A stretch of 63,304 bases of DNA, counting the filler, from Craspedostauros australis (Eukaryota): NCBI GenBank assembly GCA_030167865.1. It is 8 parts of 8 records of this genome, joined end to end, with 100 filler letters (N's around TTAATTAATTAA, not from the genome) between each part and the next. Parts side by side here need not be neighbours in the genome. Positions count along the whole stretch, not along the records: positions 3,624 to 34,226 come from JALAGF010000913.1; 7 more parts are not named here. The stretch is one strand, 5' to 3'. This document shows positions 5,038-49,405 of this stretch, in pieces (within the stretch, counting starts at the first letter, position 1; each line of letters opens with the position of its first letter). The notes under the pieces are model-generated. The model saw only the letters and a list, made by a program, of their open reading frames with translations, was not told the origin of the DNA and did not search any database. Made by a program: the position numbers and the translations under genes.

Positions 5038-7449
5038 TCATGGGTAGCATTCCACGTCCCCAATTTGCCTCTTCCTGCTCATCACCTTCACCTCTGCAGT
5101 CCCAGCCTTGTCGCCTTTGCTGCCTTTGCCATCATCATCATCGTTGGGGACGTTGAAGTTTTCATCCGTCATCTGCTCAAACAATGCCAACATTCTCCCA
5201 TCGCGACCTTCCTCTTGTGCGCACTGCAACGGCGTATCACCCCTCTTGTTCTGCATGTGCGGATCGATCATCTCCAATGTCATCAGATACTCAACCACTT
5301 CCAAATACTCGCCTTTCACAGCACAGTGCAACACTGTATCTCCCTCTTCGTTCGCCATGTTCACATCCACATCCACGTTGTTCGATTCGACCAACAGTTT
5401 CATCTTCTCAGCTCGAATCTTGTGATCATCGCTCTCGCTCTCCCTTTCATTTTCGCTTTCGCTCTCACTTTCACACCTGTGTTCAGATACATTTCTATCT
5501 GCTCCTTTGCAAATACAGTGCAATGCTGTATCTCCCCTGCCGTCTCGCAACGTGGCATCCACTGAGTCGCATCCGATCAGATCCCGAAGGACAGAAACAT
5601 CACCCTTCTTGCATGTGAGATGGAGGAGCGTGGTGCCATCATGATTCTGAATGTTCGCGATTGCTGTGACATTCTCCCTCAACCGTTGCATGATCTCCAT
5701 ATCACCAACGGTATCACCATCACCAACGTCATCATGGCTGTGCTTGTTGGAGAGATCGGTGAGGTTGGTTGTGGGAATGATTTGATGTTGAATGAAGTCG
5801 AAGACGTGACGAAGCCTGACGGTGTGATTGAAGGTGAAGAACATGCCCCTGTTGAACGCAATGTGGAGGGGTGTATCGCCATCTTTGTTTTGGATGTTGA
5901 GGCTTGCATCGGTCTTGCGTGACTGTAGTAATTCCTTGATGAAGCTTCGCCTCCCTCTCAAGCAAGCGATGTGGAGAGGCGTATTCCCATGGCTGTTTTG
6001 AATGTTGAAGATGTCGTCGATATCGATATGGATGCCATTATCGTCGTTTTGGATGTTGAGGCGTGCCTCGCTCTCGAGTGACTGTAGCAATTCCTTAGTG
6101 AAGCTTCCCCTCCCGCTCAAGTAAGCGATGTGGAGAGGCGTATTCCCATCGTTGTTCTGGGTGCGAAGCATGATGCGAGTGAGGATGCGATCATGCTTCA
6201 TCAGATACTCAACCGCGTCAAAGGCCAGCCAACCCCCGCAAGCGATGTGGAGCGGTGTATTCCCATCGTTGTTTTGAATGCTCCCATTGGCGGTAGCGTT
6301 GGCATTGATGTTGCAGTTGACGTTGATACCAAGCATGCTGTTGATATCGATACGATCCGTTTCCATCAGACACATAATTGCATCTCTTGTCCCCCATAGG
6401 CAGGCAAGATGCAGCAGCGAATCGCCACGGTGGTTTGGTCCAATCACCTCAGGACGAACATCGAGTTCATCTAAATCCAACAGATATGCGATCATTTCCT
6501 TGTTTCCACGGTCACAAGCATGATGGAGTGGAGTGTTCCCATTGTTGTTTCGGACGTTGACGTCGATATCGACGCCAATCTTATCCGACTCCATCATGTA
6601 TCTGACAGTATCGATGCGAACGAACATACATGCAACATGCAAAGGCGTGGAACCTTCCTTGTCCTGTTTGTTGATGTAAGCGTCAACGTCGACATGACTC
6701 GATTGCACCAAGTATTCCAGCACATCGGGTCGTTCGCTCTGGCATGCGTGATGAATCAATGTGGAACCATAATTGTCTTCCATGGTCATGGACACTCGGC
6801 CAGATTCCATTAAATACTTCACGGTCTCAGCGTTGTCGTGTCTGCAGGCATGATGAAGCGATATCTGGCCGTCGTCGTCTTTGAGATTGGCGTCCACGTC
6901 GATTCGATCGGACTCCATCAGATACTCAACAATGGTTTTGCGTCCACTCGAACAAGCGAGGTAGAGTGGTGTTTGACCAATGTCGGTTTGTATCTTGACA
7001 TCCACATCGATTTCATTCGATTCCACCAAGTATTCAACGATGCTCCTGTGTCCATTCGAGCAAGCATAATGAAATGGCGTGTGCCCTGTACTGTTTTGGA
7101 GATTGACATCCACATCGATTCGATCAGACTCCACCAGATACTTCACGATCTCCTTGGTTCCATGAGAACATGCATGATGAAACACAGTTTCGCCGCGCTT
7201 GTTTGCCGTATTGGAAGGGATGACCGCTCCGTCCGCATACGATTCAACTAGATCTTGGACCTCTGTCAAGTTCTCATAGTGGCATGCACGATGCACCTGT
7301 CTGATCCACTCACAGATGGCCTTGTTACTGCGTATGGTACATTGATTCCATTGTGAGGAAAGAGACATATGGTTGGGAAGTCGAGGTTGAATTGGACCAG
7401 AGAAGGAAAGCATCAGCACCAGTGTGAGTGACAAGTACGAATGCAACAA
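5038..7449 (-). CDS. Ankyrin-repeat protein, copy A (~800 aa; first in-frame ATGs at 7413 and 7368)
   Basis: Many GxTPLHxAC / TxLH repeats along an intron-free ORF. Confidence 0.9.
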   Translation of the reverse strand: MLHSYLSLTLVLMLSFSGPIQPRLPNHMSLSSQWNQCTIRSNKAICEWIRQVHRACHYENLTEVQDLVESYADGAVIPSNTANKRGETVFHHACSHGTKEIVKYLVESDRIDVDVNLQNSTGHTPFHYACSNGHRSIVEYLVESNEIDVDVKIQTDIGQTPLYLACSSGRKTIVEYLMESDRIDVDANLKDDDGQISLHHACRHDNAETVKYLMESGRVSMTMEDNYGSTLIHHACQSERPDVLEYLVQSSHVDVDAYINKQDKEGSTPLHVACMFVRIDTVRYMMESDKIGVDIDVNVRNNNGNTPLHHACDRGNKEMIAYLLDLDELDVRPEVIGPNHRGDSLLHLACLWGTRDAIMCLMETDRIDINSMLGINVNCNINANATANGSIQNNDGNTPLHIACGGWLAFDAVEYLMKHDRILTRIMLRTQNNDGNTPLHIAYLSGRGSFTKELLQSLESEARLNIQNDDNGIHIDIDDIFNIQNSHGNTPLHIACLRGRRSFIKELLQSRKTDASLNIQNKDGDTPLHIAFNRGMFFTFNHTVRLRHVFDFIQHQIIPTTNLTDLSNKHSHDDVGDGDTVGDMEIMQRLRENVTAIANIQNHDGTTLLHLTCKKGDVSVLRDLIGCDSVDATLRDGRGDTALHCICKGADRNVSEHRCESESESENERESESDDHKIRAEKMKLLVESNNVDVDVNMANEEGDTVLHCAVKGEYLEVVEYLMTLEMIDPHMQNKRGDTPLQCAQEEGRDGRMLALFEQMTDENFNVPNDDDDGKGSKGDKAGTAEVKVMSRKRQIGDVECYP

Positions 7450-8454: not shown

Positions 8455-9782
8455 ATGACACCGCAGAGGATGGAGACCCACCATGACGAGATGGCGCCGC
8501 TGAACCCGCAGAGGACTGCGCCAGATGCAGCGGAAACGGGATCCTGGCATCCGCGGCATACTGCCAGGGCCAGAAACCGCAAGGTTGCGGTGTTTTCCGT
8601 CGCTGCCATCGCCATCCTGGCTGTCATAGTCACGATGATCATGTTTGCATCCATCAGCGCCAGCCGCGATAGCAAAGACGCATCGGCCGCCTCTTCGAAC
8701 CACCACCACCACAAGACGGGGCATCACGGCAAGTACTCGACGGTGCTGTCCCTGTCAGCCTCGCCCGATATTCCGTCGGGCTGCGAGACCACCTTCCTCA
8801 TCTTCCGCCACTGTGACAAGTACGGCCCCGGCACGCAAGACGAACAGGGCAACTCCCATTGTTCCTACGTGGGCTTTGAACGCAACCAGTTCATCGCGAA
8901 TGAGATTTTCGGACCAGGCAACCGATGGCCGACGCCGTCGCTGGTCTATGCCTACACGACGCAGCGTGGGAATCACTTGAACTTCCGCGAAGTGGAAACG
9001 GTGGAGCCGCTGGCGGACAAGTACCATCTTGATGTTGTCATCTCCGATGATTCTTCCGCGTTGGCGGACGATTACTTCGATCGTTTGATGAGCGGCGAGA
9101 TGTGCGGCAAGGTGGCCTTGGCTAGTTGGAAGCATTCGTTGATCAGCAAGCGTAAGTGGAAGAAGAGAAGAGTAGTTGGTGTGAGATGACCTTGGTATAA
9201 TTGGACATTGGATCATGGTGAAACTTCAGTGTCTCCGAAGGTCGGAGAGCGACACATCGAGTGTGCTGCCATGATGTCTCTCTTTGTATGGTGCAATTCT
9301 ATTCTGCCTCTCACATTGGTCTCATTGCATCGTTTTGGTTACATTCTGGTGGCATTTTCATGAACGACGACATGCTCCACCTTTCCAACACAGTGTGCGA
9401 AACTCTCGGCAACAACATGTGCCCCTCCGACTATCCTGAGGATTCGTTCGATCAGGTTTGGCAATTGAAGTTCGTCTACGATCCTTCGAATTCGCCAGTG
9501 ATCACTCAAGCCCACTTGCGCCACTCGAACCAACCGCACAAGAAGCATGATGCGACCCTTAGCTCCAGATCTGGCAAAAAGTACGACAGCCCGGGCCAAT
9601 GGTACTCCTACCTCGCTGTGACGCAGCAAGGTTTCGATCCGTTGCAATACAGCGCCAAGTTTGGCGATTACGGTGCTGGCAATCAGCAGCATCCGGCACT
9701 GTCGCAGCACGACACTCTGCAAGGAACGCCCGTCGCTGGCGGATGGATCACATCCACGCAAGATGAGCATGAAGAAATTTAG
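8455..9782 (+). CDS. Type II membrane-anchored histidine-phosphatase (phosphoglycerate mutase)-like protein, paralog 1; exons 8455-9151 and 9394-9782
   Basis: N-terminal TM helix; FLIFRHCDK resembles the RHG motif; later R-x-x-ET and WKH. Intron GTAAGT at 9152 to CAG at 9393 gives SLISK-L-CETLG, matching paralog 2. Confidence 0.7.
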
Positions 9783-9922: not shown

Positions 9923-11356
9923 TCAAAACCAATAGTTCACACTGATACTCGTCGTCAACGACCGAACGTAGTGCCAATGACGAGATGGAATAAACAAGCA
10001 ATCTCCTGGATACAGCACAACCTCCGTGTGCTCCGCTTCCTTCGCCAACGGGCGCTTGTCGTAATCTTCGCACTCGCATTCGATGCTGCTCATGTTGCCC
10101 TGAGATGCGTACTTGTCGTCAATGCTGTCTTGCATGTTCTTCACGTACAGTTTCGACGTCCATTTGGGATCATACAGCCGCACGTACTTGACTCCCACGA
10201 TCTGGACCAGCAAGTTATCGTAGCTGTCGAAGTGGAGGGGAGTGCGCGTCCCGCCCGTTCCCATCCAAACGTTGATGCGAGATGGATGCACTCCATGCGG
10301 ATGTGTCGGAACCTGTTGACTCAACCCGCTCACCTGGTCCAGCAAATGGTGTTGGGCAAGATAGGCAACGCCGCTGGTATTCGCTTCTGTAGACGCCGAC
10401 ATCTTGCTATCCTCCAGCGTCCAGCATGACTGTTTCGATGCTGATGGCTCCATGTACCTGGAAACGAAGGACCGGAACGACATCAATCGTTCTGTCATCT
10501 TGGTGTACATGGAACCAATCTCGATCGGGACCAGCCGATGGCCATGCCTGTGAACGAGCTGATTCAGATTCCTCCATTCGTCAACGGCTGCCCATTCGGA
10601 TCCAAACTGCCGCAACACAAGCGGCGTTGATGTGGTCGCCAGCACTGCTTGCAGTTCCATGTTCTGCCAATCCATCTTTTCTTCAGCTGGATTTGCGATT
10701 GGTTGCGACAGCGCCGATGACACTTCATGTTGCGTGCGGATCGCATCTAAGCGATAATCAGCGATCGAACCATGGATAGCGGGCGGACATGGCGCCGAGG
10801 CCATCCCGTTGGAATGATCCTCCACGTATTGGAAGAGCCCGCTGATGTGCTTGCGAATGGCTGCGCCACCCACGATCATGGCCTTATCCAGCAGTTTTAT
10901 CGCCACCAAGAAGCTGCCTTCCTGCGCGTACCCAACAGCACCCGTGATGCATGCCGCAATGTATACGATCTGATCCGTCGGATTTGGCCATGTCTTCTCC
11001 CGGTTCAGTAGCCCGAAGAGGATCCCTTCCAACTCGCCACCTGTCAGTCTCATCATGGAGTAGTCACGTTCTTGGATGCAGCCCGTGCACTGCTGCGCGA
11101 GCTTGACGATCGTGATTCGTTCAGGTTTGTTGTTGCTGGTGTCATCTCTATGCTGATTGCCACTATCTCCAGCTTGAGAGACGTTGTTTGCTTCCTTGGT
11201 CACATCTGCTAAGCTTTGGACGACGTACGACGAAGCCGGTGCCATGATCTTGAGTGGGATGGCACCATGGATGGACTTGTTCAGTACAGACTCCAGCCGT
11301 TCCGCAACAGCATCGAGCTTGGCTTCACCAGAGAGGCCATCGGTTTCCAATCCATG

Positions 11357-11388
<32 letters not shown>

Positions 11389-13024
11389 TGTTATCGTCAT
11401 TAGCAGCATTATCGTCGTCTTCGTCGCTGTCAGTGTCAGTGTCACCGAACAGATCATCTGTATCATATTCTACAACCTCCTCCCCCTCGGCCTCCACTCT
11501 GCCTGGCGTTTTCCCATTCTGCTCCAGCTGTTCGCGCTCGCACTTACTACACGTGCACTGAAAGCCATAGTTGTCCAATGCCGCATGCCGCTGCTCGTAG
11601 TCATCGTCCGAAATGATGTACGAGATGGCCAATTCTTCACCTGCCTGGATATCGCGCAACGCCACGCAATACGCCACCAACGGATGGTCCTGACCCCATC
11701 CACGCGTCTTGTAGAGCAAGATGACATTAGGTTCGCAGGAATGATTCATCTTGCATGCCGTAGCGAAGAGAGCGGTGCCATCCAACGGTGTGAACAGCTC
11801 GTCCCATTCATCGTCCGCTCCGACCTTGACGGGCGGTGGGAGATCGGCCAGGAATTCTGCGATTTCGTCCACCGTATAATCCCACTCCTCGTTGTCGTTG
11901 AGTAGTCTATTTTCCAATGCAGTTGGTGTTGGTGTTGGTGTTGGTGTTGTGGCTGCGTTAGCATTTGTATCTGGTCCATCCGTTGCAATTTTGTCGTCGG
12001 ACTTTGTCGTTGCTTCATCTGCACTTTGCACCTTCGTTGCTTCCTGGTCGCTCTCGTCTTCGTCGTTGCCGTTGCCATCGCCATCGTCACCGCATCCACA
12101 ATCACTGTCATCGCCACCATCACCAATCATGCCTGCACGTTCCAAACACTTGATGAGATGCTTGTGATGCGTCTTGCGCAACTCGGAATCCATGAGGATG
12201 GATTGACGCATGGCGTGCTTGCGACGAATGCCCATGCAATTCTGTTCCAAACTTCCGACTAACTTAGACATGCCGAGCGGTGTGAGCCATGAATCCGAAA
12301 TGCCTTCCCACGCCTGCTGCAGAAAAGCATGCGAATCACGACATAGTTCGCGCAACGACTTGTCCAGCTCGATGGCTTCCTGATTGTCGCTATCGTCCTT
12401 GTACGGCAAACACGCAACATCCCACCACGGATTCATGCAGAAATCGATGTAAGGATGATCCATGGACGACTCCGGAAACGACAATCGATTCAATCGAATG
12501 CGCGCAATCCACACCGCGACGATGAGAAAGATTTCATTCGTCGTGATGGCATGATGCTTGAACTGCAACAGCGGATGGGCCTCGTCTGTGATGCGCCCCG
12601 TACACAACATCTCATGGCCGCCCCACATCCAATCATCGTCGCGACATGCGGCGCTGCAGTAGACTTGTCCACACGCATGCCGGCACGGCACGAAGGACTC
12701 GGCTTGGTCGCTGCCTGTGATGTTTGCCAAACAGGACGGATCGGCACCGATCTCCAACGCCATTTGTGGTGTGCCGCAGAACGCCATGCAGTAATGGCAG
12801 ACGAGAACGCCCGCGTGGATGTTGCCGGCCGACTGCATGTACACCATGGGGCGTTCGCAGAAGAGCAGTTCACCTTCGGTGAGACTTCGTGCTGCCACCA
12901 GGTGCCGTCCGCGCGTTTCGGAATCGGCGCGCCGCACCGTGGGCGGCAATGCATAGAGTTTGGTGCCCGTTGGCAGTGGCCTTGAAGGTGGTGGTAGTGG
13001 AGGTGGTGACTTGAGTTGTGGCAT
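9923..13024 (-). CDS. SMYD-type SET domain + JmjC (JMJD5/KDM8-like) fusion protein, 1033 aa
   Basis: N-SET RGRHLVAARSL; Cys-rich MYND-like insert (CHYC...YCSAAC...H..LC); MNHSCEPN; EELAISY; post-SET CTCSKC; C-terminal YLAQH, WMGTGGTRTPLHFD, PGDCLFIP..WHYV, SISVNYWF. Confidence 0.9.
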
Positions 13025-13583: not shown

Positions 13584-14216
13584 ACGTTATAATGAGGTTA
13601 TATAAAGTGTCTTGGCGGGACTCATCAATTAGATGTGAAGACAACACATCAACCTTGAGTTCGCCGGCACACGGCCGACATGCTCGCGTGTTGTGCGGAG
13701 TTGTTCCAGACGCGCACGGTGAAACTACGCACACTTTGTCATCGCGGGTGACTGCAGGACGGCCGGCGAGGTCCGTGTTGGGCTGGCCCGAGCTTGTCGA
13801 GTTGTGAGTCCAGTTGCTTGTTGCTGCTGACACCCGTTTTGCTTGGTGACAAAACTGTCGAGTGGTAACACATGAATAGGCCCTCGCTTCATCACGATAA
13901 CACGACATACGACCTGCAGAGAATGTAAAATGGGTCACGATAACACTAGTTGTGGAGTGTTACTCGTGATGAGTCGTGATAAAGTAGACTAAAATAGAGC
14001 ACACCCAAAACCATCCAAACAACTGCTTATGATGTTATATCTCAACAACACATCATTTAAAATTAAAACTAGACAGTTCATTCGGACGTTTGCCTATCGT
14101 TTATTCTGAATATCGAAGTTAAATTTGTATGAACTTTATTTTTAATGTCGTTTTGGCTTGCTGTCTGTCAGGTGGTGGGTGCGAAAAATTCTCGATGGCA
14201 CCATGCTGCCCTACCT

Positions 14217-15027
14217 TCAGCACCCATGATCATCATTATCATCCCTGGCATTTTCGCAAGCTGCGCACCACATTGGCTCCGGATACCCCCCATCTATCCA
14301 CTCCATGAAGATCCTGCGCAGATAGGCTCATCTCATACTCCAAAGTGTCCCTGCACTGAAAAGCAAAAATTTTGAAAACACAATTTTGATGCTGATGCCG
14401 TTCGGATTTGGATCCGTATCTTGTCGATACGATCGTTGCAGCTCCTCCACATGCTCCCCATGCGTTCCCACATTCTCTGGCGACACATTGATGTGTTCAG
14501 AATGGGTGGGGCGCTCATACCTCCAAAGGTACACCTCCATGTGATGATGCCACCATGGAGTTTTTGTGACACCCCAAAAAATCCCTTTTGTGTGCATCCC
14601 AGGCTGCAGCCTCTTCCAGACCTTTGTTTTTTCTGACGCTTCATGAACCGATCCCTGAGTTAATTTTGAACACATCTTGTATGGGTACCTTGGCGATTTG
14701 GGTGACTCGTGAACGCCACGCATCACCACCGAAGTCATGTGATGTGTCCGCCGCCACCCACCAAAAAACTCTTGCCCGCCACTTGTTTCTTGCGGAGGGC
14801 ACCTTCCAGGCCACCCCCGACCCTCAAACTTCGTGTGCATCTTCATCGTATCCTCTTGGATGCGTCTTGCCCATCAATAGTCGTTGGGATGGCCTGTGCA
14901 TTCCAGACAGAGACCATATCCAACAAGCAGATGTTCCTCCGAATTGTGTCATGTGCGCGTGGGCCTGCCACGGTCCCAAATCGACCACTATGGCATCCCC
15001 CTCTCGCTCATCCACCAAGCTTTCCAT
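14217..15027 (-). pseudogene. Degenerate second ORF inside the element, divergent from the transposase; unknown product
   Basis: MESLVDEREGDAIVVDLG... continues through TGAs at 14824 and 14641, a probable frameshift at the T6G4 run (~14571-14582) and a TGA at 14328, ending ...WCAACENARDDNDDHGC*. Confidence 0.35.
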
Positions 15028-15484
15028 GGCGGTTCCGCCTATGCGCTCGGATCTTGCACTGGACCGCTGGTTGTCGCAGTGCCGATGATGCCGTTCGACG
15101 GCGCTTGAGGAGTTTTGTTGTGTTTCTCCATTGTCATGTTGTTGTGTTGTGTTTGGTGTTCTCAAACAGTTTTTGCTGTTGGGGGCCATGGAGATTAGCC
15201 ACAATTCTGCCGAATGTGCCAACCAATGAGAACACTTTGCGAGTCCCGAATTGCGCCTCCATTCCACAACACCAAAACTGTCCTCACAAAGTGGACAACG
15301 GAAACACTGCGCATCTGGGACGAGCTGCTGTTGGTTCTTTGCTGCTTGTGGTTGTGGCTTGCACAACAATGTGGAATGACTGTGACCCTCCACATGGGAG
15401 AGAGTGGATGATACAATGCACCTTGTGCCCGTCCTCCAATGTTGCCCATGCCCCCTGTGACGTGCTGCGCCGTGCTGTGCGTCG

Positions 15485-18208
15485 ATGGCTGGTGATACAA
15501 TGCGCTGCGTCGCTGTCCTCGTGATTCTGGTGTGCGTCGCGACATGCCTTTCAACGCAACTGCAGCCTTCATCAACACAGTACACATCATCCTGCAATCA
15601 CTGTACTCTTCACCTTGCAAGAACGCTGCGCGCTGGTGACTGTGTGAAGGTGGCATCCCACCAGAGCTCAAGTGGCAGGGTCCATGATGTTGAGTTTGCA
15701 CTGAAGCTGACTGCCGATGGCGCTACGATCAAACGCGATGGGCCTCTTGCACCAGGAGAGGTGGAGATGGTCATGGTGACCCCAGTGATGGGGCAGAGCT
15801 GAATGTACGTTATGCGTGAGGATCTGTGCACGCCACACAGCCTCGCTACCTTTGCACGGACTTGCACTGCTGGTGGCCTTGCTAAGCCTTCCCTTCTTTC
15901 TCCCCAGCATCACTCCGTTGCTGTTACGTGTGTCAACAGCAAGGCTAAGCCCCCCACACCATCCCCAACTACCATGGAATCGCAAGAAGCCAGCATCGCC
16001 GCTTTTCTCGAGGTCTCACGTCAGCAGAAAGAAATGGCAATCGCCCGTCTCAACAAGCAGATGAAGAGAGGCGCAACAACAAAAGGATGGCTACGAAAGG
16101 ATGGAGGGCGTAGCAACACTAAGCCCACCAATAGAAAGAAACAACTTGATACGCAAGACAAGCACAACTACATTGTTCTCTACTTCAATTTGGGTGGGAT
16201 CCCAGCCAACACAAAATTGATCGCCCACGCCTGGGATATTGGTGCCACCACTGTTGCAAGCAACATCAAGAAATTCCAACAGAACAAACTGGAATGGAAG
16301 AAGCACAGTGATGCAGGCAGCACCATCTTCACCTGCCCCAAGAAGCAACAGCAATACTTCACGCCGCGTGCCATCTTCACGAAACAACTGTGGCTTAGGT
16401 ATCCAAGACAACGGTTGACGACTGAGGACATCTCTTATGCCTTTGACCATGCTTTGCCTGAAGAGCTGGCATCCGCAAAATCCCTGTCTGATTCGTGGTT
16501 GGAGCGTGGTCCTCTCCTGCAATTTGAGTTCCAGGATATGTTGCGACAATGCAATGGCGCAATGTCGTGGGGCGATGTTGCATGCGAACTAGCAGGAAGG
16601 GGCAACGTCCAATGCGTTTGCACGAACACCATTCGAACATACGTGATGGGATTGGAGGGCAGCAACTACCGTTCTACAACGATGCTCCCCAAGATCAAGG
16701 GTGTCATCAAGGTGAAGCGCGAAATCAGGGCCAAGGACTTCTGTGTGTTCTGGGAATCAGCTAAGCGGTTCCCGAATACGCAAGTTGTCCTTGTCCACAT
16801 GGATGAGAAGTGGTTCTACTCTATTGTCGCTCGGAAGAATCTCAAACATGTGCCCCAAATGGGAGCTAAGCCTGTGAAGCAGACTGTGCATCACAAGTGT
16901 CACATTGACAAGACCATGGCAATTGCATCAACAGCATTTGCTCCAACAGACAACCGCTTTGAGCAAGGAGGAAAGGCGTATCAGGTGAACTTCAAGCGTG
17001 TTGGGCGCATGGCTTGAGCGCAGAAGACCACGTACAAGCGAACTTGGGTCTCGCCAACCAAGTACAAGCACATTCATGATCCCAAGAAAATCTCTCGTGT
17101 GAAGCGTGAACTGTACTTCCAAGCACTGGAGATCACAGGCAGCAAGGAATCAGTTGGTGCGCCTGATAAGCCCAAGCCAAAGTATAGCCTCAAGAAATTC
17201 TTCCACGAAAAAGAAATCCCTGCACTGGATTCGCTCGCCAGCAAAATCAAGGCCGAAACCAACAAGAACGTGGTGATTCGGTACCAGATGGATGGCGCAG
17301 GGCCACACGGAGACACGGAACTACTCAGGTTCATCAACGAGGAGTTCGACAGTCGCGGATGGCACTTACGACTGCAACCACCAAATTCTCCCATCACGAA
17401 TGTGAAAGACGATGCAATATTCTCAGCGATGTCCAAACATGTGTCAGAATATCAAGGTGAGCACCACGGAAGCCGATTGCTTACCACCGAGGCGTTGTGG
17501 GGTGCTTGCGGAACCTGTTGGAAACAATTCAAGCTGGACAAGGTGGCTAGCGCATATGTTCGCCACCATCAGATTGCCTACGCAATTTGTGCTGCAAAAG
17601 GAGGTGACGAATTTGTGACGGAGCGCAAGGGACTGCACATGAATGTGCGGAAACAATCATTCACCGAAACTGACGAGGACGGCAACGAGATCGGCGTTAC
17701 TGTGTGTCACACAGACTTTGTGTTGGAGGAGGATGAGGCAACCCGCGCGACCACCAAGAAACCAACTGCAACAGGCAACAAAGGCAAATCAGCTGGCTTC
17801 AAATACGCCAAGCCCAACATCAAAGGTATATACGATGATGCCCTCAAGGTGATGGCTGTCAGTGGACTGCAGTGCCTGAAAATGAACCTGCCAGCAACCA
17901 GCAGCCTCATTCCGTTGCTGGATAAGCAAATCGTCGCGACCACCAAAGCCAACAAGGAGGCTGAACAACGGAAGAAAGGCAAGAAGAGAAAGAAGATGCC
18001 CAGCAAGAGCAAAGCCAACATCATTGAGCCTTGCAACAACAACAGCAAAGCCAAAGCAGCACCCACCATGAACACATTTGAAGTGGCCTGTCTGGCTGGC
18101 AAGACCAAGGCAGCACCCACCATGAACACATTCGAAGTGGCCATGTTCGTTGGCAAGACCGAGCATCACTGCAAAGCAGAGCAGGATACCAACACAGCAG
18201 AGATGTAA
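15485..18208 (+). pseudogene. Tc1/mariner-superfamily (plant-mariner-like) DDD transposase with two in-frame TGA stops
   Basis: VHMDEKWFY, YQMDGAGPH, QPPNSPITNVKD (38 residues between the 2nd and 3rd D). ORFs 15485..15802, 15803..17017 and 17099..18208 share one frame, broken only by TGA at 15800 and 17015. Confidence 0.85.
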
Positions 18209-18835
18209 CTGCAAATCGTTGTAGTAGTGATGATATGTGTGAGGTACACCTGTGATTCGAATGGTTGTGTGCGCATCGTCTGCTTGATGGCATGGAGGAT
18301 TGTGGTGTGATGTGTTGTGTTTGAGTTTTTGTGTGACGAGGACCGTTATTTTTGTGTCGTGGTTGGTGCGCATTTCCACACGATCGGTGTGTAGTGTCGC
18401 GGAGCCGTCACGTTGTGTTGTGGCACAGTCTGCGTGTGTTGCGGCGCGATTGGTGTGTGCTGCGCAGCCATCACGTTGTGTCGCGAAGCAAGGGCCACGT
18501 GCTGCGAGACGCACTCACTTCTTGTGTTGTGAGTGGTTTCGAATGACGTCGAATCCGTCATGTGACGTAGAAGATGGATCAGAGAGAGACAACACGAAAT
18601 AGCTTTAAATGTACAATCGCCGTTGCTCCCAAAGCAAGCAAACCAGTGGCAACAAGGGGCCAGAAGGGGCCAAAAACTCTACAACCAGCGTTATCGTAAC
18701 CCCATTCCGCATTTGGTGCAGGTCGTAGAAACAGAGAACAACGATAACAACTAATTTCTCCCCTGTTCTGTTCGCGCGTTCTGATTGACGAAACCGACTT
18801 CTCGTCACAATGTTTGGTCACGAGTGGTGTTCGCA

Positions 18836-18915: not shown

Positions 18916-19633
18916 GATGTGGCTGGCTGCACACGCCATATTGATAATATATTTATCCGAGATATGCCCAATGGGTTTGCTTGGGATGCACGAACCACAT
19001 TCTTGTTGTTGCCGTTATGGCGTGATGTTGAAGGTTCTCAATGATACCGAATGTCGCGGAACACAATGATGTCATGACGGATTGGTCGTATTAGTCGAAT
19101 GGCGGTATGATTGGATTTGCCGGGTGTCGCGGAAGTTGATGCATCCACATAATTCGTGACTCAAATCGATCACAACATGGGCACAATCGTTTGTTGTGTG
19201 GGTATCCTTTTGTGTTCGTGACTGATATCTACGTACAACGTACAGACTTTTTGACACCTCCGATCAAATCAACGATGTGACAAACACAAATGGGCGCTTC
19301 GCTTTCGTGAACGACAAGCAAGCGTGTGGGAAGCAGTGTTGGCGACATCGATCCTTGCTTCCTTCCTTCCTTCTTTTCTCCTTTCACAGAACTGGATACT
19401 CTCGCCCTTTCCAGAGGTTGCGGACTATTACTCGAATGACACACCATCCACGTCGCGAGTTTGTGCTCGTGACCTCCATGTTGTGAAGGAGACAAAGCCT
19501 TTCGCACCAGAGTCATCGGCCAGCGACAGGCGTCATAATTTCCGACACCGTTCCATCCAAACGGTCAACTGTGGCACACATTGACCCTGTTAGAGCAGAA
19601 ACAACGACAACTGCTCAACACCAAACGACAACC

Positions 19634-21767: not shown

Positions 21768-23919
21768 ATGAAGATCGGTAGCTTGATCCTTCCGCTCGCC
21801 GTGCTTTCGGCATCCAGCACAGAGGCCTTCTTCGTGCCATCGACGCCCACCTTCGTCCAGAAGTGCAGCAGCGCGACGAGCAGCACCAGCCTCGATGCCT
21901 CCACACTGAAGCGGCTGCCGGAATCCGCCGTCGAGGTCGGCCTGGACGTCCCGGGATCGGCCACGAAGGCGGCCTATGAGAAGGTCTGCGCCGAGCTGTC
22001 CAAAACCGTGCAGATCCCGGGATTCCGCAAGGGCGCCCGCATCCCACCGCAGGTCCTGGAGCAGGCCATGTCTGCCAAGGGCGGACGCACCGCTCTCAAG
22101 GCGCAGGCCATCAACACGCTCTTCTCGCAGCTCATCGAGACGGCCCTCAAGGAGGATCACGGATTGGAACCCATCGGACAGCCCAGCCTCGTCACGCCGG
22201 CCGAGGAGTTGGCCAACAGCTTCGTGCCGGGCGAGGACTTCGCCATCGTCGTGCAGTGCGACGTGTGGCCCGACATCCAGTGGAAGCAGGGCCAGGACAA
22301 GCCCTACGTCGGATTGACCGGTTCCTACAAGCGTGCGCCGTTCGACGAGGCCAAATTCAACAAGGCCCTCACGGATCTGCGGGAACGGTACGCGCAGCTC
22401 GCGCCGATCGATGACAAGTCGCACGAACTCGCCATGGGAGACTCCTGCACGGTCAACATGGATGGGTTCATGGCCACCGACGATGGCGAGAAGGGAGAGC
22501 CGCTGCCCAACGCCGCCAGCGGCGATCAAGTGGAGATCATCATGGGTGAAGGCCGTTACATGAAGGGTCTCGTAGAAGGTTTGGTCGGTGCCAAGGTCGA
22601 TGAGACACGACAGGTCACTGTCACATTCCCAAATGTGAGTTCATGGTGATTGTTGGTGATTGCTGATGCTTTCAGTTTTGTTTGCGATGGTGCTCTGTCA
22701 TGTGGTTGGAGGTCCTCTACCAGTACGGTGTGAAAGGTTGGGATTCATAGGGGAGATCAGTGGTGCACCTCATTCAAATCGACCGTGCGACAAATTGACT
22801 GGAGGCAAAGATCAGCAACTCACACAGTGCTGTCTTCAATCCCTTTCTTCGGTGTTGATGATGTACCAACCCCATATTATTCATGCGATCATCTATCCAA
22901 TGCGCGCATTGCATTGCGCACATCCACAGGCGCTGCGCGACAAGACGCTCGCTGGCAAGAAGGCCATCTTCGACGTCACCGTGCTCGATGCTTCCAAGCG
23001 CACCCTCCCCGAAGTCACGGATGAGTTCGCCGCTGAGGTGCGCGCCGGCTTGACCAAGGAATCCCTCGAGGAGGAGCTGCGAAAGGCCGTCGATTCGGAG
23101 GATGCCAAGGAGTTCGTCCCAGCCCGCAACGCCGCCCTGGCCAAGGCGCTGGCACAGGTCATGGACGTCGAGGTCCCCGACACCCTCGTCACGAACCAGG
23201 CTCGTGACAAGTTCGCCATGATGATGACGGACATGCGTAACAACGGCGTCTCCGATGAGGAGATCAAGAACCAGATCAATCCCGAAAACTTCAGCAAGTA
23301 CAAGAACATCGTCAAGGAGGACATCGTCAACGACTTCAAGGTTTCCATGGCGACAGATGAGATTGCTCGTTTGGAGGGAATTGATGTGCCGGGATACCAG
23401 GTGGAGGAGCAGCTGGAGGCCGTCCGCAACGAGGCCTCGCAGAGCGGGGAGGAATTCGATGAGGCCCAGATCAAGAGCCGCATCGAAGCCACTCTCCAGA
23501 GGCAGCTCGTGATGGACTTTTTGGCCGAGAACTCGGAGCTCCAGATCGAGTTCACCAACGAACACGAATTCAATGAGGAGCTGATGGAGGAACTTGCGCA
23601 GAGTACCATCAAGGCTGCTGAGGAGCGAACTCCGGAAGTGATTGATGCTGTTGTGGAAGAACCAGAAGCTGCGGTTGAGCCTGAGGCCGCCGAGGAACCA
23701 GAAGCTGAGTCAGTCGCGGAGCCAGTCGCGGAGCCAGTCGCAGAGAAGGTTGAAGAGGAGGCAGCACCGGAGCCAGTTGCGGAGCCAGCTGCGGAGAAGG
23801 AAGAAGAACCCGAGCCAGAGGCTGTTGAAGAGAAGGAAGAGGAGGTTGACTTCGCCTCAATGACGTTGGAAGAAAAGGCGTACTACTCTCTGAAGAATGC
23901 TGGTGCGCTCGACAAGTAA
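21768..23919 (+). CDS. tig: Plastid-targeted trigger factor; exons 21768-22634 and 22930-23919
   Basis: IPGFRKG ribosome-binding signature, FKBP-like domain, VTVTFP motif; signal peptide with EA-FFVP cleavage (ASAFAP-like); phase-0 GTGAGT..CAG intron; EPVA-rich tail. Confidence 0.92.
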
Positions 23920-36029: not shown

Positions 36030-38345
36030 TCATGGGTAGCATTCCACGTCCCCAATTTGCCTCTTCCTGCTCATCACCTTCACCTCTGCAGTCCCAGCCT
36101 TGTCGCCTTTGCTGCCTTTGCCATCATCATCATCATCGTTGGAGACGTTGACGTTATCATCCGGCATCTGCTCAAATAATGCCAACATTCTCCCATCGCG
36201 ACCTTCCTCTTGTGCACACTGCAACGGCGTATCACCGCTCTTGTTCTGCATGTGCGGATCGATCATCTCCAATGTCATCAGATACTCAACCACCTCCAAA
36301 TAGTCGCCTTTCACAGCACAGTGCAGCACTGTATCTCCCTCTTCGTTCGCCATGTTCACATCCACATCCACGTTGTTCGATTCGACCAACAGTTTCATCT
36401 TCTCAGCTCGAATCTTGTGATCATCGCTCTCGCTCTCACTTTCATTTTCGCTTTCGCTTTCACTTTCGCTTTCGCTCTCACTTTCACACCTGTGTTCAGA
36501 TACATTTCTATCTGCTCCTTTGCAAATACAGTGCAATGCTGTATCCCCCCTGCTGTCTCGCAACCTGGCATCCACTGAGTCACATCCGATCAGATTCCGA
36601 AGGACAGAAACATCACCCTTCTTGCATGTGAGATGGAGGAGCGTGGTGCCATCATGATTCTGAATGTTCGCGATTGCTATGGCATTCTCCCTCAACCGTT
36701 GCATGATGTCCATATCACCAACGGTATCACCATCACCAATATCGGCATGGCTGTGCTTGTTGGAGAGATCGGTGAGGTTGGTTGTGGGAATGATTTGATG
36801 TTGGATGAAGTCGAAGACGTGACGAAGCCTGGCGGTGTGATTGAAGGTGAAGAACATGCCCATGTTGAATGCAATGTGGAGGGGTGTGTCACCATCTTTG
36901 TTTTGGATGTTGAGGCTTGCATCGGTCTTGCGTGACTGTAGCAATTCCTTGATGAAGCTTCGGTCCCAATCCAAGCAAGCGGCATGGAGAGGCGTATTCC
37001 CATGGTTGTTTTGAATGTTGAAGATGTCGTCGATATCGATATGGATTCCATTATCGTCGTCGTTGATGTTGAGGCTTGCATCGGCCTTGCGTGACTGTAG
37101 CAATTCCTCGATGAACCTTCGCTCCCCTTTCAAGCAAGCGATGTGGAGAGGTGTATTCCCATCGTTGTTCTGGGTGTGAAACATGATGCGAGTGAGGATG
37201 CGATCATGCTTCATCAGATACTCAACCGCGTCAAAGGCCAGCCAACCCCCGCAAGCGATGTGGAGCGGTGTATTCCCATCGTTGTTTTGAATGCTCCCAT
37301 TGGCGGTAGCGTTGGCATTGATGTTGCAGTTGACGTTGATACCAAGCATGCTGTTGAGATCGATACGATCCGTTTCCATCAAACATGCAAACTCATCTCT
37401 TCTCCCATATAGGCAGGCAAGATGTAGCAGCGAATCACCATCGCGGTTTGGTCCAATCACCTCAGGACGAACATCGAGTTCATCTAAATCCAACAAATAT
37501 GCGATGACTTCATGGTGTCTGCACCCACAGTGGAGTGGAGTGTTCCCACTGTTGTCTCGGACGTTGACGTCGATATCTACACCAATCTCATCGGACTCCA
37601 TCATGTATCTGACAGTATCGATGCGACCGAACTCACATGCGACATGCAAAGGCGTGGAACCTTCCTTGTCCTGTTTGTTGATGTAGGCGTCAACGTTGAC
37701 TTGACTCGATTGCACCAAGTGTTTCAGCGCATCGGGTCGTTCGCTCCAGCATGCGTGATGAATCAATGTGGAACCGTCATTGTCTTCCATGGTGATGGGC
37801 ACTCGGCCAGATTCCAATAAATACTTCGCAGTCTCAGCATTGTCGTGTCTGCAGGCACTATGAAGCACTGTCTGGCCGTGGTCGTCTTTGATACCGGCAT
37901 CCACGTCGATTCGATCGGACTCCATCAGATACTCAACAATGGCTTTTCGTCCAAGCCAACTTGCATGATGAAATGGTGTGTGCCCTTTCTTGTTTTGGAG
38001 ATTGACATCCACATCGATTCGATCAGACTCCACCAGATACTTCACGATCTCCTTGGTTCCATGAGAACATGCATGATGAAACACAGTTTCGCCGCGCTTG
38101 TCTGCCGTATTGGAAGGGATGACCGCTCCATTCGCATACGATTCAACCAGATCTTGAACCTCTGTCAAGTTCTCATAGTGGCATGCTTCTTCCACCTGTC
38201 TGATCCACTCACAGACGGCCTCGTCACTGCGTATGGTACATTGATTCCATTGTGACGAAAGAGACGTATGGTTGGGAAGTCGAGGTTGAATTGGATCAGA
38301 GAAGGAAAGCACCAGCACCAGCATCAGCACCAGTGTGAGTGACAA
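36030..38345 (-). CDS. Ankyrin-repeat protein, copy B (~770 aa; first in-frame ATG 38324)
   Basis: Close paralog of 5038..7449 lacking about one repeat, with a longer (ES)n tract. Confidence 0.9.
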   Translation of the reverse strand: MSLTLVLMLVLVLSFSDPIQPRLPNHTSLSSQWNQCTIRSDEAVCEWIRQVEEACHYENLTEVQDLVESYANGAVIPSNTADKRGETVFHHACSHGTKEIVKYLVESDRIDVDVNLQNKKGHTPFHHASWLGRKAIVEYLMESDRIDVDAGIKDDHGQTVLHSACRHDNAETAKYLLESGRVPITMEDNDGSTLIHHACWSERPDALKHLVQSSQVNVDAYINKQDKEGSTPLHVACEFGRIDTVRYMMESDEIGVDIDVNVRDNSGNTPLHCGCRHHEVIAYLLDLDELDVRPEVIGPNRDGDSLLHLACLYGRRDEFACLMETDRIDLNSMLGINVNCNINANATANGSIQNNDGNTPLHIACGGWLAFDAVEYLMKHDRILTRIMFHTQNNDGNTPLHIACLKGERRFIEELLQSRKADASLNINDDDNGIHIDIDDIFNIQNNHGNTPLHAACLDWDRSFIKELLQSRKTDASLNIQNKDGDTPLHIAFNMGMFFTFNHTARLRHVFDFIQHQIIPTTNLTDLSNKHSHADIGDGDTVGDMDIMQRLRENAIAIANIQNHDGTTLLHLTCKKGDVSVLRNLIGCDSVDARLRDSRGDTALHCICKGADRNVSEHRCESESESESESESENESESESDDHKIRAEKMKLLVESNNVDVDVNMANEEGDTVLHCAVKGDYLEVVEYLMTLEMIDPHMQNKSGDTPLQCAQEEGRDGRMLALFEQMPDDNVNVSNDDDDDGKGSKGDKAGTAEVKVMSRKRQIGDVECYP

Positions 38346-45647: not shown

Positions 45648-48026
45648 TTAGGCGTGTTGTTCGGCGTTCACGTCATCGACATCGCCGCTCGCGGAGTCGC
45701 TCTCCTCCATCATGCTCATTCTCTTCGACTCTTCGTACATGAACACGCTGCGCTCCTTGGCTTGCTTCCACTCTTCGATTGGCTCGTCCTCACCATCGAG
45801 CAAGAGCAGCTCCCACTCCTCGAGGAAACGGGGAAGGACGAAGAGACGTCCTGGGATGCACAGCATCGTCATCATTGGGAAGATGAGTGCAGCGGCTCTC
45901 ACGTTCTGGACGGTGAAGACCAGCGAGAAGAACAGGATCTGAAGGATGGTGTACATGTGGATGCGGCTCTTCTCCATGTGCTCGGTGTAGATTGTCTTGG
46001 GGTACTTGGATGGCTGCTGGAAGAAGAGCATGATGCGGTTCCAGAATTGGATGCCACCGAGACTGGAGAGACCCATGAAGAGGAACACTCCGTACAGGAC
46101 TGGAAGTGGCAGCAACTTGAGCAAGTTGAGGACCAGGATAGAAAGTCCAAGCATCAAGTGGGAGAAGAAGAGAGTCAATCGGGTCTCCTGCACCTCGAGG
46201 AAGTTGCCGTCACGGTCCTTCTCGGCCAATGCGTTGAGATGGATGATACATGGAACAGTGGTGGCCACCAACCATGGGAGACCGAAGGCACCGTTGACGA
46301 AATTGAAGAATCCGTTGAGACACAGATCGTAGTTGTACGCTTCGCCGTGCTTCAGGTTGTGACTCTTGTGCTGGATCAAGTGCCATGTGATGCCGTTGTC
46401 GAGGTAGCAGAGAAGGAAGGCGAGGAGGGCCGGACCGGCAGCCACAAAGATCACATAGGGCTTTCCATTGAGATCACCGAAGTCGACCAACCAGGATCGT
46501 GTTCCGGCAGCCTCAGCCTGATCTTCGCAGTCATCTGGGAAGAAGGTGCGGCACGAAGAATCGCAGCATGCGAAGGTCGGCTCGAACTTGTCTGGGACAC
46601 TCAAGGACTCGGTGTCGACATGGTCAAAGATAAGTTCCTTGACCAGCGTCCATGCCAACACGGAAAGTGTGACGGAGAAATCATGGATAGATGTACGGAT
46701 GCCGTCGTTGCAGAAGAAGGCGGAGTGGCGGAATCCACGGAAGAAGAAGATCACGGAGGTGGTTCCAAGTCCGAGAATCACACTCAGAAGTCCCGAGGAG
46801 ATGTAGGCGTAGTTTGGATCTTCCTCCTCTAGTACCGTGTGGGAGGCATGATCTGGGTTCATGTAATGAAGAAGTCCAACGTCGCTGAATGGATCGCCGA
46901 TGGCGTCCATCACGAAGATACTGACGATGAGGAGGGCGAAGATCTCGTCAGTGAAGCGGGTGGCGAGCTTCACGAATCTGGTGAGATCGAAGAATCCAGC
47001 GATGAGGGTGTAGGCGAAGAGCCACACACTGATCCACGCGTTGAAGGTGAGGAAGGGAACATCGAGGTTCTTGGACAGGTCATAGGCTGCTGTGGAGAAC
47101 GCGAGGACTGGGCCGGTAGATCCAATCACGCAGAGCGGCATTCCACCGATGAGACTGTAGACGACACCGACCCAGGCGGTTGCCATGATGGTCTCGATGG
47201 CACCGATCTGGTTGTCGGTTGCCTTTCCGTAGACAGCTCCGAAGGTGAGGGTTGGGGAGATGACGGAGATGAAGACAAGGAAGGTGACAGCGACGGTCTT
47301 TTGGTTGAAGTTGGTCATTTCCTGTTGAGTTCATTGTGGTCGTTTATGATGCATCAAGGTTGGGGATTGGGTCCAATGAATTTCAGAGATTCATGGTTTT
47401 TGGATTAGATGGGATGTAAAGTTGTTGTATCCGTGTGGTGGCCGGGCATGAGTTGCGCAATCGGGTTGCGTTTGCGCAGTAGAGTTGGTGATGCAGCGAG
47501 GTCAAGAAGAAGTTAGTAGTTGCCAAACGATTGGAGAGGATTGATATATTGTTTGTCCGCGTTCTCGCGCAGAACCTGTTCCGATTGGTGCTTCCTTCTG
47601 GGGTGGCGACTTTTCGCGCAGGACCGCAAATCTCCGTTGGCATGGGTGGCGTTGGTTTCACTTTGCGCGCCTTGCTTATCACAACGCTTAGTGCCGGCTC
47701 TGGTTCAGAATGGCACAGAAGGAGTGGAATGAAATCGAATTGGGATCCAACAAGTTCCAGATAATGCGTCGCATCGCGTCACACGTGCGCCGTTCATCGC
47801 TGCCATCCAAGTGGCATTCAATCATTTGCGAATTCGTTTCACGTACCTCGACCCAGTGCGTGCCGACAGTCTGTCGGATATCATTCACGATACCGCGTCC
47901 CCATGACTGCGGTAGTTCCTTGCGGCCTTGGCTGACATTGGCCAACAGCTCGGCGTTGGATGGCATCGTCTTGAGGGTCCCGCGCGGGGTCGGGACGATG
48001 AGAGTCTGCCGATCCTTGTCTGTCAT
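45648..48026 (-). CDS. SLC4: SLC4-family HCO3- transporter paralog 2; exons 47847-48026 and 45648-47321 (617 aa)
   Basis: PTLTFG, GSTGPVL, TRFTDEIF, GLPWLVA, VQETRLT, PVLYGVFLFMG; phase-0 GTACGT..CAG intron gives HWVE-EMTNFNQK. Confidence 0.93.
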
Positions 48027-49405
48027 GATGCTATCTGCTGTGGTGTATTGAGGTGGTATTAGTGTGCTTGGTCAAGGGTTGAGTTGGAATGAATGGATGG
48101 ATGAAATTCGATGATGTGACTCGCGATTCGATGAACGGCGAGGGGCCGGCACGGATGCGGAAGAGGAAACGGATGAAGAAAGCTGCGGATGCTGCAGACA
48201 ATGAGATTGTCAATGTTTGTCCTCGTTTCTTTGTTTCTTTCCTTCGTTGTTGCTGTTGTTTGCGTTCACGGATCCTTCGTGCGAAAATCGAATTTTGTGA
48301 GGACGAGGAGAGGACGCCGGATTGACTTCCAACAGAAGACCGACACGACAATGTATGTCTGCGTCTTGTTTATCTTCTGTCCTTCCGGTTGTTGTTGGTA
48401 AGTGTGGTTGTGAAGTCGTGCAAATGATGCTTGTCAGTCGTATCTGTGGGAGCCGCTGCGGGCACTTCACCTCTGCGCGTCCAACAGCGTCAATACCCGC
48501 ACTGACTTTTGCCACCAACCACCATCGTGAGAAATCGATGAAGAAACGACCGCCTCCTGAAGTCTGATTTCCTTTCTCCACTTGGGAAGAAGCGGTCTGT
48601 TGGTGCCCGAACCATGACACTTCGAGCTTTTGTCATCCACGGACGTTCGTCTCCCATTCCGTTTGTGGGCGTGGCTTCATGTGACGTCACATGTGTACAG
48701 TTAGTACTGACATTTACGCAACTGCCTTGGCCCCGAAAGTGTGCGCGTGGTGCATCGCCTTCGCCCTCGCTGGTTGGCCAACAACTGTCTTCGGAAAATC
48801 CGCCGTCCGCAAGACCGCGCTGTTCTCTTTTCCCGTACAGTTGGCACAGAGCGGTGGATGATGGCAATCACGCGATTTCCAACTGCGAATCCAATTCTCA
48901 GACCTTTGATGAGCTTCAGGCACTTTGGTATCCCAGCGATTGTTAAATGCTCGTGTTCGTGACGTCATGGTATCCGCAGTATTCTCTGCATGTGATTTGC
49001 GAGTCTACGTCACAAACCTTTCCGGCGACTGGGCACAGAATCACAATCACGAAAATTCAAGCTACGTGCATCAACATAGAGGGTTGCTGATACCATCAAA
49101 TTCGTCACAATGGGACAGCGCCACACCGCACAACTATTGTCGCGAGTATGGTGACTATTGCTCTACTCCCGTGATTGCATGTAACATAACACTGTTTATA
49201 ATAGACACATGATGGAGTGCAGAGTATACGAATGCCTGGAGATTATGACACGAAAGAGAGGAAGAGGACAGGCTGCGATACACGAACATGTTGAGAATGG
49301 TGCTCGCGGGCATCGATGATTGGTGTCCACCGCATGCTTGAATGATACCATCCCCAGTTCTGATTCTCGGGGTTGATTTCGACGCTGTCGTTCTGCGTTG
49401 TCATT

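What the first reader, a model, noticed from the sequence alone, without database searches (positions are those of the whole stretch)
9923..13024. Single-ORF fusion of a SMYD-type SET methyltransferase and a JMJD5-like JmjC dioxygenase
Seen: an uninterrupted 1033-aa ORF with a split SET domain (zinc insert, acidic insertion, NHSC, ISY, post-SET CxCxxC) and a JmjC domain retaining the HxD...H iron triad (PLHFD, WHY). Established: SMYD SETs are lysine methyltransferases; JMJD5/KDM8-type JmjC proteins are 2OG/Fe(II) hydroxylases whose demethylase role is disputed. Inference: this is a writer plus eraser/hydroxylase in one chain, or a two-step methylate-then-hydroxylate enzyme. I recall SET+JmjC architectures being listed in stramenopile chromatin surveys, so the architecture may not be new, but I know of no characterised function.
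Basis: partly seen in the sequence, partly recalled or inferred. Interest (0 to 1): 0.72.

Follow-up and report, generated by a model that had tools for sequence, protein, structure and literature searches.

The report
Diatom methyltransferase fused to a hydroxylase
A diatom gene encodes one protein joining a lysine methyltransferase to an iron-dependent oxygenase; the fusion is real, old in diatoms and was noted in 2011, but it looks more like a methylating-plus-hydroxylating enzyme than the histone writer-eraser first proposed.

Summary
The 1033-aa ORF is real. About 100 full-length relatives exist, and the named ones are diatoms. Many 'SET-only' records simply stop at a shared intron. The fused SETs form one clade. 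The architecture is known: it was reported, with cDNA PCR, in Phaeodactylum in 2011 (PMC3145265), and this scan met it before in another genome. Added here: among the animal SMYDs tested, SMYD5 (the eL40-K22 methylase) is closest. The JmjC half belongs to a protist sister group of JMJD5 that lacks Y243 and carries a JMJD7-like HxDxY[DE]N motif. AlphaFold packs the halves rigidly (pTM 0.87). The gene lies next to a plastid trigger-factor gene in 9 of 12 distinct loci. Best reading (0.5): a lysine methylase plus a hydroxylase, not an eraser, probably on non-histone, translation-related proteins. No substrate, activity or transcript is shown. Interest 0.42.

The parts
9923..13024 (-). Intronless ORF, 1033 aa: SMYD5-like SET fused to a complete JMJD5-like protein
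12155..12946 (-). SET N-half, MYND-type Zn finger and helical SET-I (aa 27-290)
12602..12799 (-). MYND-type Zn finger (aa 76-141); spacers 34 and 4 residues, against 37 and 4 in animal SMYD5
11825..12154 (-). Acidic, largely disordered insertion within the SET (aa 291-400; pLDDT under 50 at 311-372)
11534..11824 (-). SET C-half and post-SET (aa 401-497): NHSC, catalytic Y469, CxCxxC
11678..11716 (-). Fusion-specific WG..PL loop (aa 437-449): 68 of 86 fused, 1 of 36 stand-alone SETs; candidate interface (inference)
   Evidence: covariation inconclusive
11339..11533 (-). Acidic linker (aa 498-562, 46% D/E) with a conserved [LIV]FG motif (70 of 86); similar motifs begin several stand-alone JMJD5-like proteins, so the fusion joint probably lies here
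10790..11338 (-). KDM8/JMJD5-type N-terminal helical domain (aa 563-745)
9926..10693 (-). JmjC domain (aa 778-1033): H931, D933, H1018; E835 kept; HxDSYDN signature
10571..10573 (-). R818 codon: site of a phase-2 intron in relatives, absent here
21768..23919 (+). Trigger-factor gene with a plastid-type signal; divergent partner of the fusion gene (about 0.6 kb apart in relatives, 8.7 kb here)

Best explanation
A bifunctional protein-modifying enzyme that arose once, at or just before the base of diatoms. A stand-alone SMYD5-like methyltransferase gene joined the 5' end of a whole stand-alone JMJD5-like gene. The SET half uses SAM to methylate a lysine (chemistry inferred from intact residues). 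The JmjC half uses Fe(II), 2-oxoglutarate and O2 to hydroxylate a basic residue, Arg or Lys, rather than to demethylate (inferred from family). The KDM8 helical domain docks on the SET and holds the two catalytic domains as one rigid unit (predicted, not shown), so both marks are probably laid on one substrate or complex. The most likely targets are cytosolic non-histone proteins of the translation machinery, with eL40 Lys22 the leading candidate for the SET half (inferred; about 0.35 on its own). Shown: the ORF, its conservation, the intact motifs, family placement and gene linkage. Inferred: activities, interface and substrates.
For: Conservation: 147 hits of 568-1808 aa, most covering both halves, named ones from Nitzschia, Pseudo-nitzschia, Seminavis, Fistulifera, Mayamaea, Epithemia, Amphora and Leptocylindrus. 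In 86 aligned fusions N427, H428, Y469 and the post-SET Cys are 86 of 86; H931 83, D933 85, H1018 82, K946 81, W920 83 and E835 83 of 86. One origin: the 21 rows labelled fused form one side of a branch, SH-aLRT 99, quick tree; 8 of 8 fused JmjC halves group at 94. SMYD5 affinity: the SET profile scores vertebrate and shrimp SMYD5 at 113-122 bits and tick at 88, against 70-76 for SMYD1-3; hhalign probability 99.9 over 350 columns; Atlas SMYD5 cluster at 0.96. SMYD5 is the eL40 K22 trimethylase, needs KxY and did not methylate H3K36 or H4K20 in vitro (two preprints, passages). This genome's eL40 keeps the full motif, and the fusion is the only SMYD5-like match in the genome search. Rigid unit: pTM 0.87 for the full length and 0.83 without the JmjC, against about 0.50-0.56 expected for independent halves by my arithmetic. 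No signal-peptide-like stretch in 0 of 53 complete N-termini, and no strong basic cluster in this protein.
Against: No activity, substrate or transcript is shown. The eL40 KxY motif is not discriminating: yeast eL40 K22 is unmethylated, and its presence here is expected in any eukaryote. SMYD5 orthology is not established: SMYD4 was not tested, the tree left SMYD5, the green-algal group and the stramenopile group unresolved with long branches, a metazoan study found no plant Smyd5 (PMC4521844), and the basic loop after the catalytic Tyr of animal SMYD5 is missing. The JmjC half lacks the conserved Tyr243 needed for arginyl hydroxylation (Y in 2 of 81, this protein being one), so its substrate class is open. 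A few fusions have decayed iron sites (e.g. P0138). The model interface could be biased by SMYD1-3 structures, which also carry a helical domain after the SET; overlap with those is only partial. Plant ATXR2 and JMJ30 are reported as histone enzymes acting on shared genes.
Confidence: 0.5

Rival explanations
1. A chromatin module: the SET writes a histone mark (such as H3K36me3) and the JmjC erases or clips another, a fused version of the Arabidopsis ATXR2 and JMJ30 partnership.
For: Reviews state that ARF7/ARF19 recruit ATXR2 and JMJ30 to LBD16/LBD29 (PMC10199984, PMC10980418, passages; primary papers not seen). A Volvox relative scores 302 bits on the SET profile, sits nearest a 477-aa land-plant SET+MYND cluster and has a 92-residue Zn spacer like the 84 reported for ATXR2. 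Maumus 2011 proposed a dual histone activity. Soybean JMJ19/20 clip H3. The acidic LFG motif loosely resembles transcription-factor docking motifs (weak).
Against: No call returned a sequence named ATXR2; the link is partly recalled. The fused JmjC sits in a sister group apart from the mite JMJD5 and this genome's own stand-alone JMJD5-like gene, which keep the loop Tyr, so it is probably not the JMJ30 orthologue (JMJ30's sequence was not seen). JMJD5 and its soybean relatives lack demethylase activity in vitro. SMYD5 did not methylate histones in vitro. No chromatin-reader domain.
Confidence: 0.2
2. The JmjC protein was captured mainly as a structural or regulatory module: its helical domain fills in for the C-terminal domain that SMYD5 lacks, and the two activities act on unrelated substrates or the JmjC is partly dispensable.
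For: The SET and helical domain pack without the JmjC (pTM 0.83). Structural alignments to SMYD1-3 extend partly into their C-terminal domain (about 300 residues at 5-6 A). SET catalytic residues are invariant while the iron triad is lost in 1-4 of 86 per position. In other lineages the two proteins are separate.
Against: The JmjC is the second most conserved region (median identity 0.56) and keeps its cofactor residues in about 95% of members. The SET core alone aligns better (about 260 residues at 4 A) than SET plus helical domain, so it is not a copy of the SMYD arrangement.
Confidence: 0.15
3. A two-step enzyme acting on one residue: the SET trimethylates a lysine and the JmjC then hydroxylates that lysine's chain, giving hydroxy-trimethyl-lysine.
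For: Predicted rigid coupling. The JmjC has Y935 (79 of 86) and D/E936 (82 of 86), matching the HxDxY[DE]N pattern of the lysyl hydroxylase JMJD7 rather than JMJD5's, and lacks the Arg-stacking Tyr243. Hydroxy-trimethyl-lysine occurs in diatom silaffins (recalled; no paper seen).
Against: The same JmjC signature occurs in 24 of 26 unfused relatives from other eukaryotes, so it is not an adaptation to the fusion. Silaffins are secretory (recalled) and 0 of 53 N-termini look like signal peptides. The distance between active sites could not be measured.
Confidence: 0.12
4. An assembly or gene-calling artefact joining two neighbouring genes.
For: Some records hold only one part: P0123 is 521 aa on a 16 kb contig, P0180 is a stand-alone-length member inside the fused clade, and Cylindrotheca has two adjacent models. 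These were not checked at DNA level.
Against: Stop-free frame across the linker here and in many independent assemblies. cDNA PCR in P. tricornutum. 32 of 50 long records scored as lacking the JmjC end stop at one place, where 7 of 15 loci examined show a GT-AG phase-2 intron.
Confidence: 0.02

Closest known systems
Phaeodactylum tricornutum SET+JmjC gene model bd1647 (Maumus et al. 2011, PMC3145265; passages seen)
   Same: SET before JmjC in one chain, listed under SMYD, diatom, transcript with both domains confirmed by PCR.
   Different: Its sequence was not fetched, so orthology is likely but untested. The paper read it as methylase plus demethylase, did not assign subfamilies, and listed it as not found in T. 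pseudonana and Ectocarpus; here intron-split fusions occur beside Attheya and Leptocylindrus.
SMYD5 (animal eL40/RPL40 K22 trimethyltransferase)
   Same: Split SET with a long MYND insertion, no TPR C-terminal domain of SMYD1-3 type, acidic tract after the post-SET, catalytic Tyr; best-scoring animal SMYD tested.
   Different: About 25-30% identity in blocks, a 110-residue acidic insertion in the SET, a fusion-specific WG..PL loop, no basic loop after the catalytic Tyr, fused to a JmjC protein; orthology unresolved.
JMJD5/KDM8 (arginyl C3 hydroxylase; plant JMJ30)
   Same: Helical N-domain plus JmjC, Z 27, 1.9 A over about 224 residues; H321, D323, H400, N327, K336, Y272, W310, E238 and Q275 equivalents kept.
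   Different: Tyr243 not conserved in the family; HxD[ST]Y[DE]N instead of HxDPxxN; groups with stand-alone proteins of Dictyostelium, Balamuthia, Paramoeba, Sphaeroforma, Trebouxia and Diacronema rather than with the one animal JMJD5 available.
Arabidopsis ATXR2 with JMJ30
   Same: A SMYD-type SET and a JMJD5-type JmjC reported to act together; green-algal relatives of the SET share a very long Zn spacer.
   Different: Separate proteins, assigned histone activities; ATXR2 orthology not tested against a named sequence; the JmjC half is probably a paralogue of JMJ30.

Membership tests
SMYD family | [quoted passage not shown] | tested here: met
   Eight Zn ligands, NHSC and CxCxxC conserved in all rows with residues; fold match to SMYD1-3 at Z about 19
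SMYD5 class | Long spacer between Zn pairs 1 and 2, short between pairs 2 and 3 | tested here: met
   34 and 4, against 37 and 4 in three SMYD5 proteins; feature from PMC4521844
SMYD5 class | Acidic tract after the post-SET and no SMYD1-3 TPR C-terminal domain | tested here: met
   46% D/E at aa 498-562; the following helical domain matches JMJD5-like N-termini. The tract may instead come from the JmjC partner's N-terminus
SMYD5 class | Groups with SMYD5 against other SMYD classes in a tree | tested here: inconclusive
   Profile prefers SMYD5 to SMYD1-3, but the tree lacked SMYD1-4 sequences and left the node open
SMYD5 class | Trimethylates eL40 K22 through a KxY motif | not testable with these tools
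   Only the substrate motif was checked and is present
JMJD5/KDM8 | HxD...H triad and 2OG-binding N327, K336, Y272, W310, S/T318 | tested here: met
   Present here and in 80-85 of 86; numbering
JMJD5/KDM8 | N-terminal helical (ARM_KDM8_N) domain before the JmjC | tested here: met
   Pfam E 0.005, under cut-off as in stand-alone members; profile alignment
JMJD5/KDM8 canonical arginyl hydroxylase | Arg-binding pair E238 and Y243 | tested here: not met
   E kept in 83 of 86; Y in only 2 of 81 fused, although this protein has Y840. Not met for the family
JMJD5/KDM8 canonical arginyl hydroxylase | Groups with animal JMJD5 | tested here: inconclusive
   Falls apart from mite JMJD5 and the genome's stand-alone copy, but only two canonical rows were available, one on a long branch
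JmjC histone demethylases (KDM2-7 type) | KDM-type fold neighbours and chromatin-binding domains | tested here: inconclusive
   All 50 listed structural matches are hydroxylase-type and Pfam finds no reader domain; absence from a list does not exclude, and activity was not tested
Plant ATXR2 | Orthology to a named ATXR2 sequence | not tested
   No call returned one; indirect signs only

The most novel reading that the evidence does not exclude
A rigid two-site enzyme that trimethylates a lysine and then hydroxylates the same lysine on a cytosolic, probably ribosomal or translation-factor, protein. It would be a diatom-specific double modification built from a SMYD5-like writer and an uncharacterised JMJD5-sister lysyl hydroxylase, and co-expressed with plastid trigger factor from a shared promoter. 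A further branch (about 0.03) is that it makes the hydroxy-trimethyl-lysine of silica-forming proteins.
Probability: 0.12. Interest if true: 0.8.

Novelty: new member of a known kind. Interest (0 to 1): 0.42.

Why it matters
The architecture is not new, but its printed reading (histone writer plus eraser) predates the reassignment of SMYD5 to eL40 methylation and of JMJD5 to hydroxylation. A stable diatom-wide fusion with a predicted fixed interface suggests the two enzyme lineages share a target. It gives a single-gene knockout test in P. tricornutum, and a handle on a widespread protist JMJD5-sister subfamily for which I found no described substrate.

Tried and rejected
RNA evidence: no RNA holder listed; the one run laid was a single contig covering 9400-10133 and says nothing about the linker. 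Covariation between halves: the top inter-half pair D446-K710 ranked 6th overall, but it is mostly lineage-driven (DK in 30 of 106 rows, no charge swaps to speak of), so it is inconclusive. Named ATXR2: not returned by the bridging search or the Atlas; the supplements of PMC4521844 held only 4,791 characters of text and no hit, and its alignments, unseen, bear on the ATXR2 question. Plant eL40 methylation: no mention in the tobacco ribosome paper. SMYD5-JMJD5 interaction in print: nothing evident among the 20 listed of 168 papers. Follow-up on the diatom fusion: only the 2011 review surfaced. TND-interacting motif for the LFG motif: described TIMs use a helix plus optional FxGF, not matched. 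The N-terminal GNAT of N. inconspicua P0016: no match in the loci or window, treated as a probable gene-model merge. A paper on diatom-specific SET proteins was not held. The careful SET tree did not finish; the quick tree is quoted, with 5 stand-alone rows dropped by my trimming pattern. eS6 keeps the RPS6 R137 region but this is uninformative.

Full report
Observation. The ORF 9923-13024 (minus strand) is stop-free for 1033 codons, lies inside contig G000:C913 and has even GC. Pfam gives SET, a sub-threshold ARM_KDM8_N and Cupin_8/JmjC. The best solved relatives are human JMJD5 and SMYD3/SMYD2. The AlphaFold model (86-sequence alignment, mean pLDDT 84) shows a SET with MYND and SET-I, a disordered acidic insertion, the SET C-half, an acidic linker, a helical domain at about 563-745, and the JmjC.

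It is a conserved gene. The homologue search returned 147 proteins (120 listed), most covering both halves; named ones are raphid pennates plus Leptocylindrus and a truncated Attheya record. The window's protein groups with Nitzschia and Pseudo-nitzschia. Of 150 long SET-bearing records, my filter scored 100 as reaching the JmjC end and 50 as not; one of the 50 (P0138) is really full length with a decayed site, and 32 stop at the same W..WR position. In 7 of 15 metagenome loci examined this is a GT-AG phase-2 intron in the R818 codon, 3 read through, and 5 did not match my pattern. So most 'SET-only' records are cut fusions. Some short records (P0123, P0180, two adjacent Cylindrotheca models) were not checked at DNA level and could be real splits.

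Origin. In a quick tree of 62 SET halves (5 rows dropped), the 21 rows I labelled fused (two of them fragments labelled by guess, three intron-truncated) form one side of a branch at SH-aLRT 99, together with P0180. Around them lie stand-alone SETs such as Chattonella and Chrysoparadoxa. Fused JmjC halves also group (8 of 8 at 94; with four fragments). Two unnamed fused proteins branch deepest; whether they are Parmales is a guess. The C-terminal half aligns end to end with stand-alone JMJD5-like proteins, and an acidic [LIV]FG motif in the linker (70 of 86) resembles the N-termini of several of those, so a whole gene was appended.

The SET half. A profile of 34 SET halves scores animal SMYD5 at 113-122 bits (tick 88) and SMYD1-3 at 70-76; green-algal relatives score far higher (Volvox 302). 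Profile alignment to SMYD5 spans 350 columns, the Atlas lists a SMYD5 cluster at 0.96, and Zn spacers match. Against: SMYD4 untested, tree node open, and PMC4521844 (passages) found no plant Smyd5. SMYD5 is now described as the eL40 K22 trimethylase needing KxY, with no activity on H3K36 or H4K20 in vitro (10.1101/2024.10.10.616381, first fifth plus passages; 10.1101/2024.07.21.604450, passages), though a 2026 review still lists histone substrates (PMC13362160, passages). This genome's eL40 fits the motif, which is necessary but not telling. The genome search found only the fusion and one weak other SET (counts are lower bounds).

The JmjC half. The fold matches JMJD5 (Z 27, 1.9 A) and then TYW5, JMJD7 and FIH. 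Metal and 2OG residues defined in PMC5862942 (passages) are kept in 80-85 of 86. E238 is kept but Y243, whose mutation inactivates JMJD5, is present in only 2 of 81 fusions. The family has HxD[ST]Y[DE]N (75 of 86 fused; 24 of 26 stand-alone relatives), as JMJD7 has HxDxYEN. Those relatives come from Amoebozoa, a haptophyte, a green alga and an ichthyosporean. The genome also has a stand-alone JMJD5-like gene that keeps the loop Tyr and HxDP and groups with the mite JMJD5, on a long branch. I read the fused domain as a JMJD5-sister hydroxylase with an unknown Arg or Lys substrate; only two canonical rows support the split.

Coupling. pTM is 0.87 for the whole protein and 0.83 for SET plus helical domain. 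Simple arithmetic gives about 0.50-0.56 if the parts were placed independently, and needs about 3 A inter-part error to approach the observed values. A WG..PL loop is nearly confined to fused SETs (68 of 86 against 1 of 36). The helical domain lies partly where SMYD1-3 put their C-terminal domain but does not superpose, so model bias cannot be excluded. No controlled complex prediction was available.

Neighbourhood. Of 14 fused loci with at least 1.3 kb upstream, 10 carry a trigger-factor gene, 9 head-to-head about 0.6 kb apart and 1 in tandem; merging near-identical loci gives 9 of 12. None of 16 unfused SET loci does. The linked loci fall on both pennate and Attheya-side branches. In the window the gene is divergent but 8.7 kb away, with a repeat-flanked insert between. 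Trigger factor here has a plastid-type leader while the fusion has none, so this points at most to shared regulation; inherited linkage needs no function.

What is known. PMC3145265 (passages) reports a SET+JmjC model in P. tricornutum with cDNA support and proposes dual histone activity. Searches found no follow-up in the library, which lacks most subscription papers. Reviews describe ATXR2 and JMJ30 acting together in Arabidopsis, and soybean JMJ19/20 lacking demethylase activity (PMC12956348, passages). PMC2938197 (passages) notes that chromatin-domain fusions are rare in the JMJD5/FIH clade.

Verdict. A real, old, diatom-wide fusion of known architecture and unknown function. Methylase plus hydroxylase acting as one unit on non-histone targets 0.5; chromatin module 0.2; structural capture 0.15; two-step on one lysine 0.12; artefact 0.02. 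Novelty: new member of a known kind. Interest 0.42.

Noticed in passing
window 21768-23919 (+); L008, L010/L011, L012, L018, L021, L022, L024, L025, L035: Plastid-type trigger-factor gene linked to the fusion gene in 9 of 12 distinct fused loci with enough flank, mostly head-to-head about 0.6 kb apart.
   Followed up: partly
window 13908-18727: Insert with imperfect 27-nt inverted ends and ORFs at 15803-17017 and 17288-18208 without Pfam hits; one motif recalls Tc1/mariner transposases (recalled, untested). It separates the fusion from trigger factor.
   Followed up: partly
L002 (G000:C4489:4714-5502, -): Stand-alone JMJD5-like gene keeping the loop Tyr and HxDP, without an evident helical N-domain in its frame.
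   Followed up: partly
P0242, P0255, P0190, P0232, P0251, P0287 and others: A widespread protist JMJD5-sister subfamily with HxDSYDN and no Tyr243; I found no description of it, but did not search for one specifically.
   Followed up: partly
P0138 and a few other fused relatives: Fusions whose JmjC iron site has decayed while the SET stays intact.
   Followed up: no
P0016 (Nitzschia inconspicua): Record carries an extra N-terminal GNAT domain, not seen near the gene in other loci; probably a merged gene model.
   Followed up: partly
window 8455-9782 (+): Two-exon-like gene with one membrane segment, convergent with the fusion; a similar gene flanks the fusion in L008, and a paralogous stretch lies near 19500. 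No confident Pfam family.
   Followed up: no
window 5038-7413 and 36030-38324 (-); 45648-50992 (-): Two long ankyrin-repeat ORFs, and two tandem bicarbonate-transporter (HCO3_cotransp) genes.
   Followed up: no
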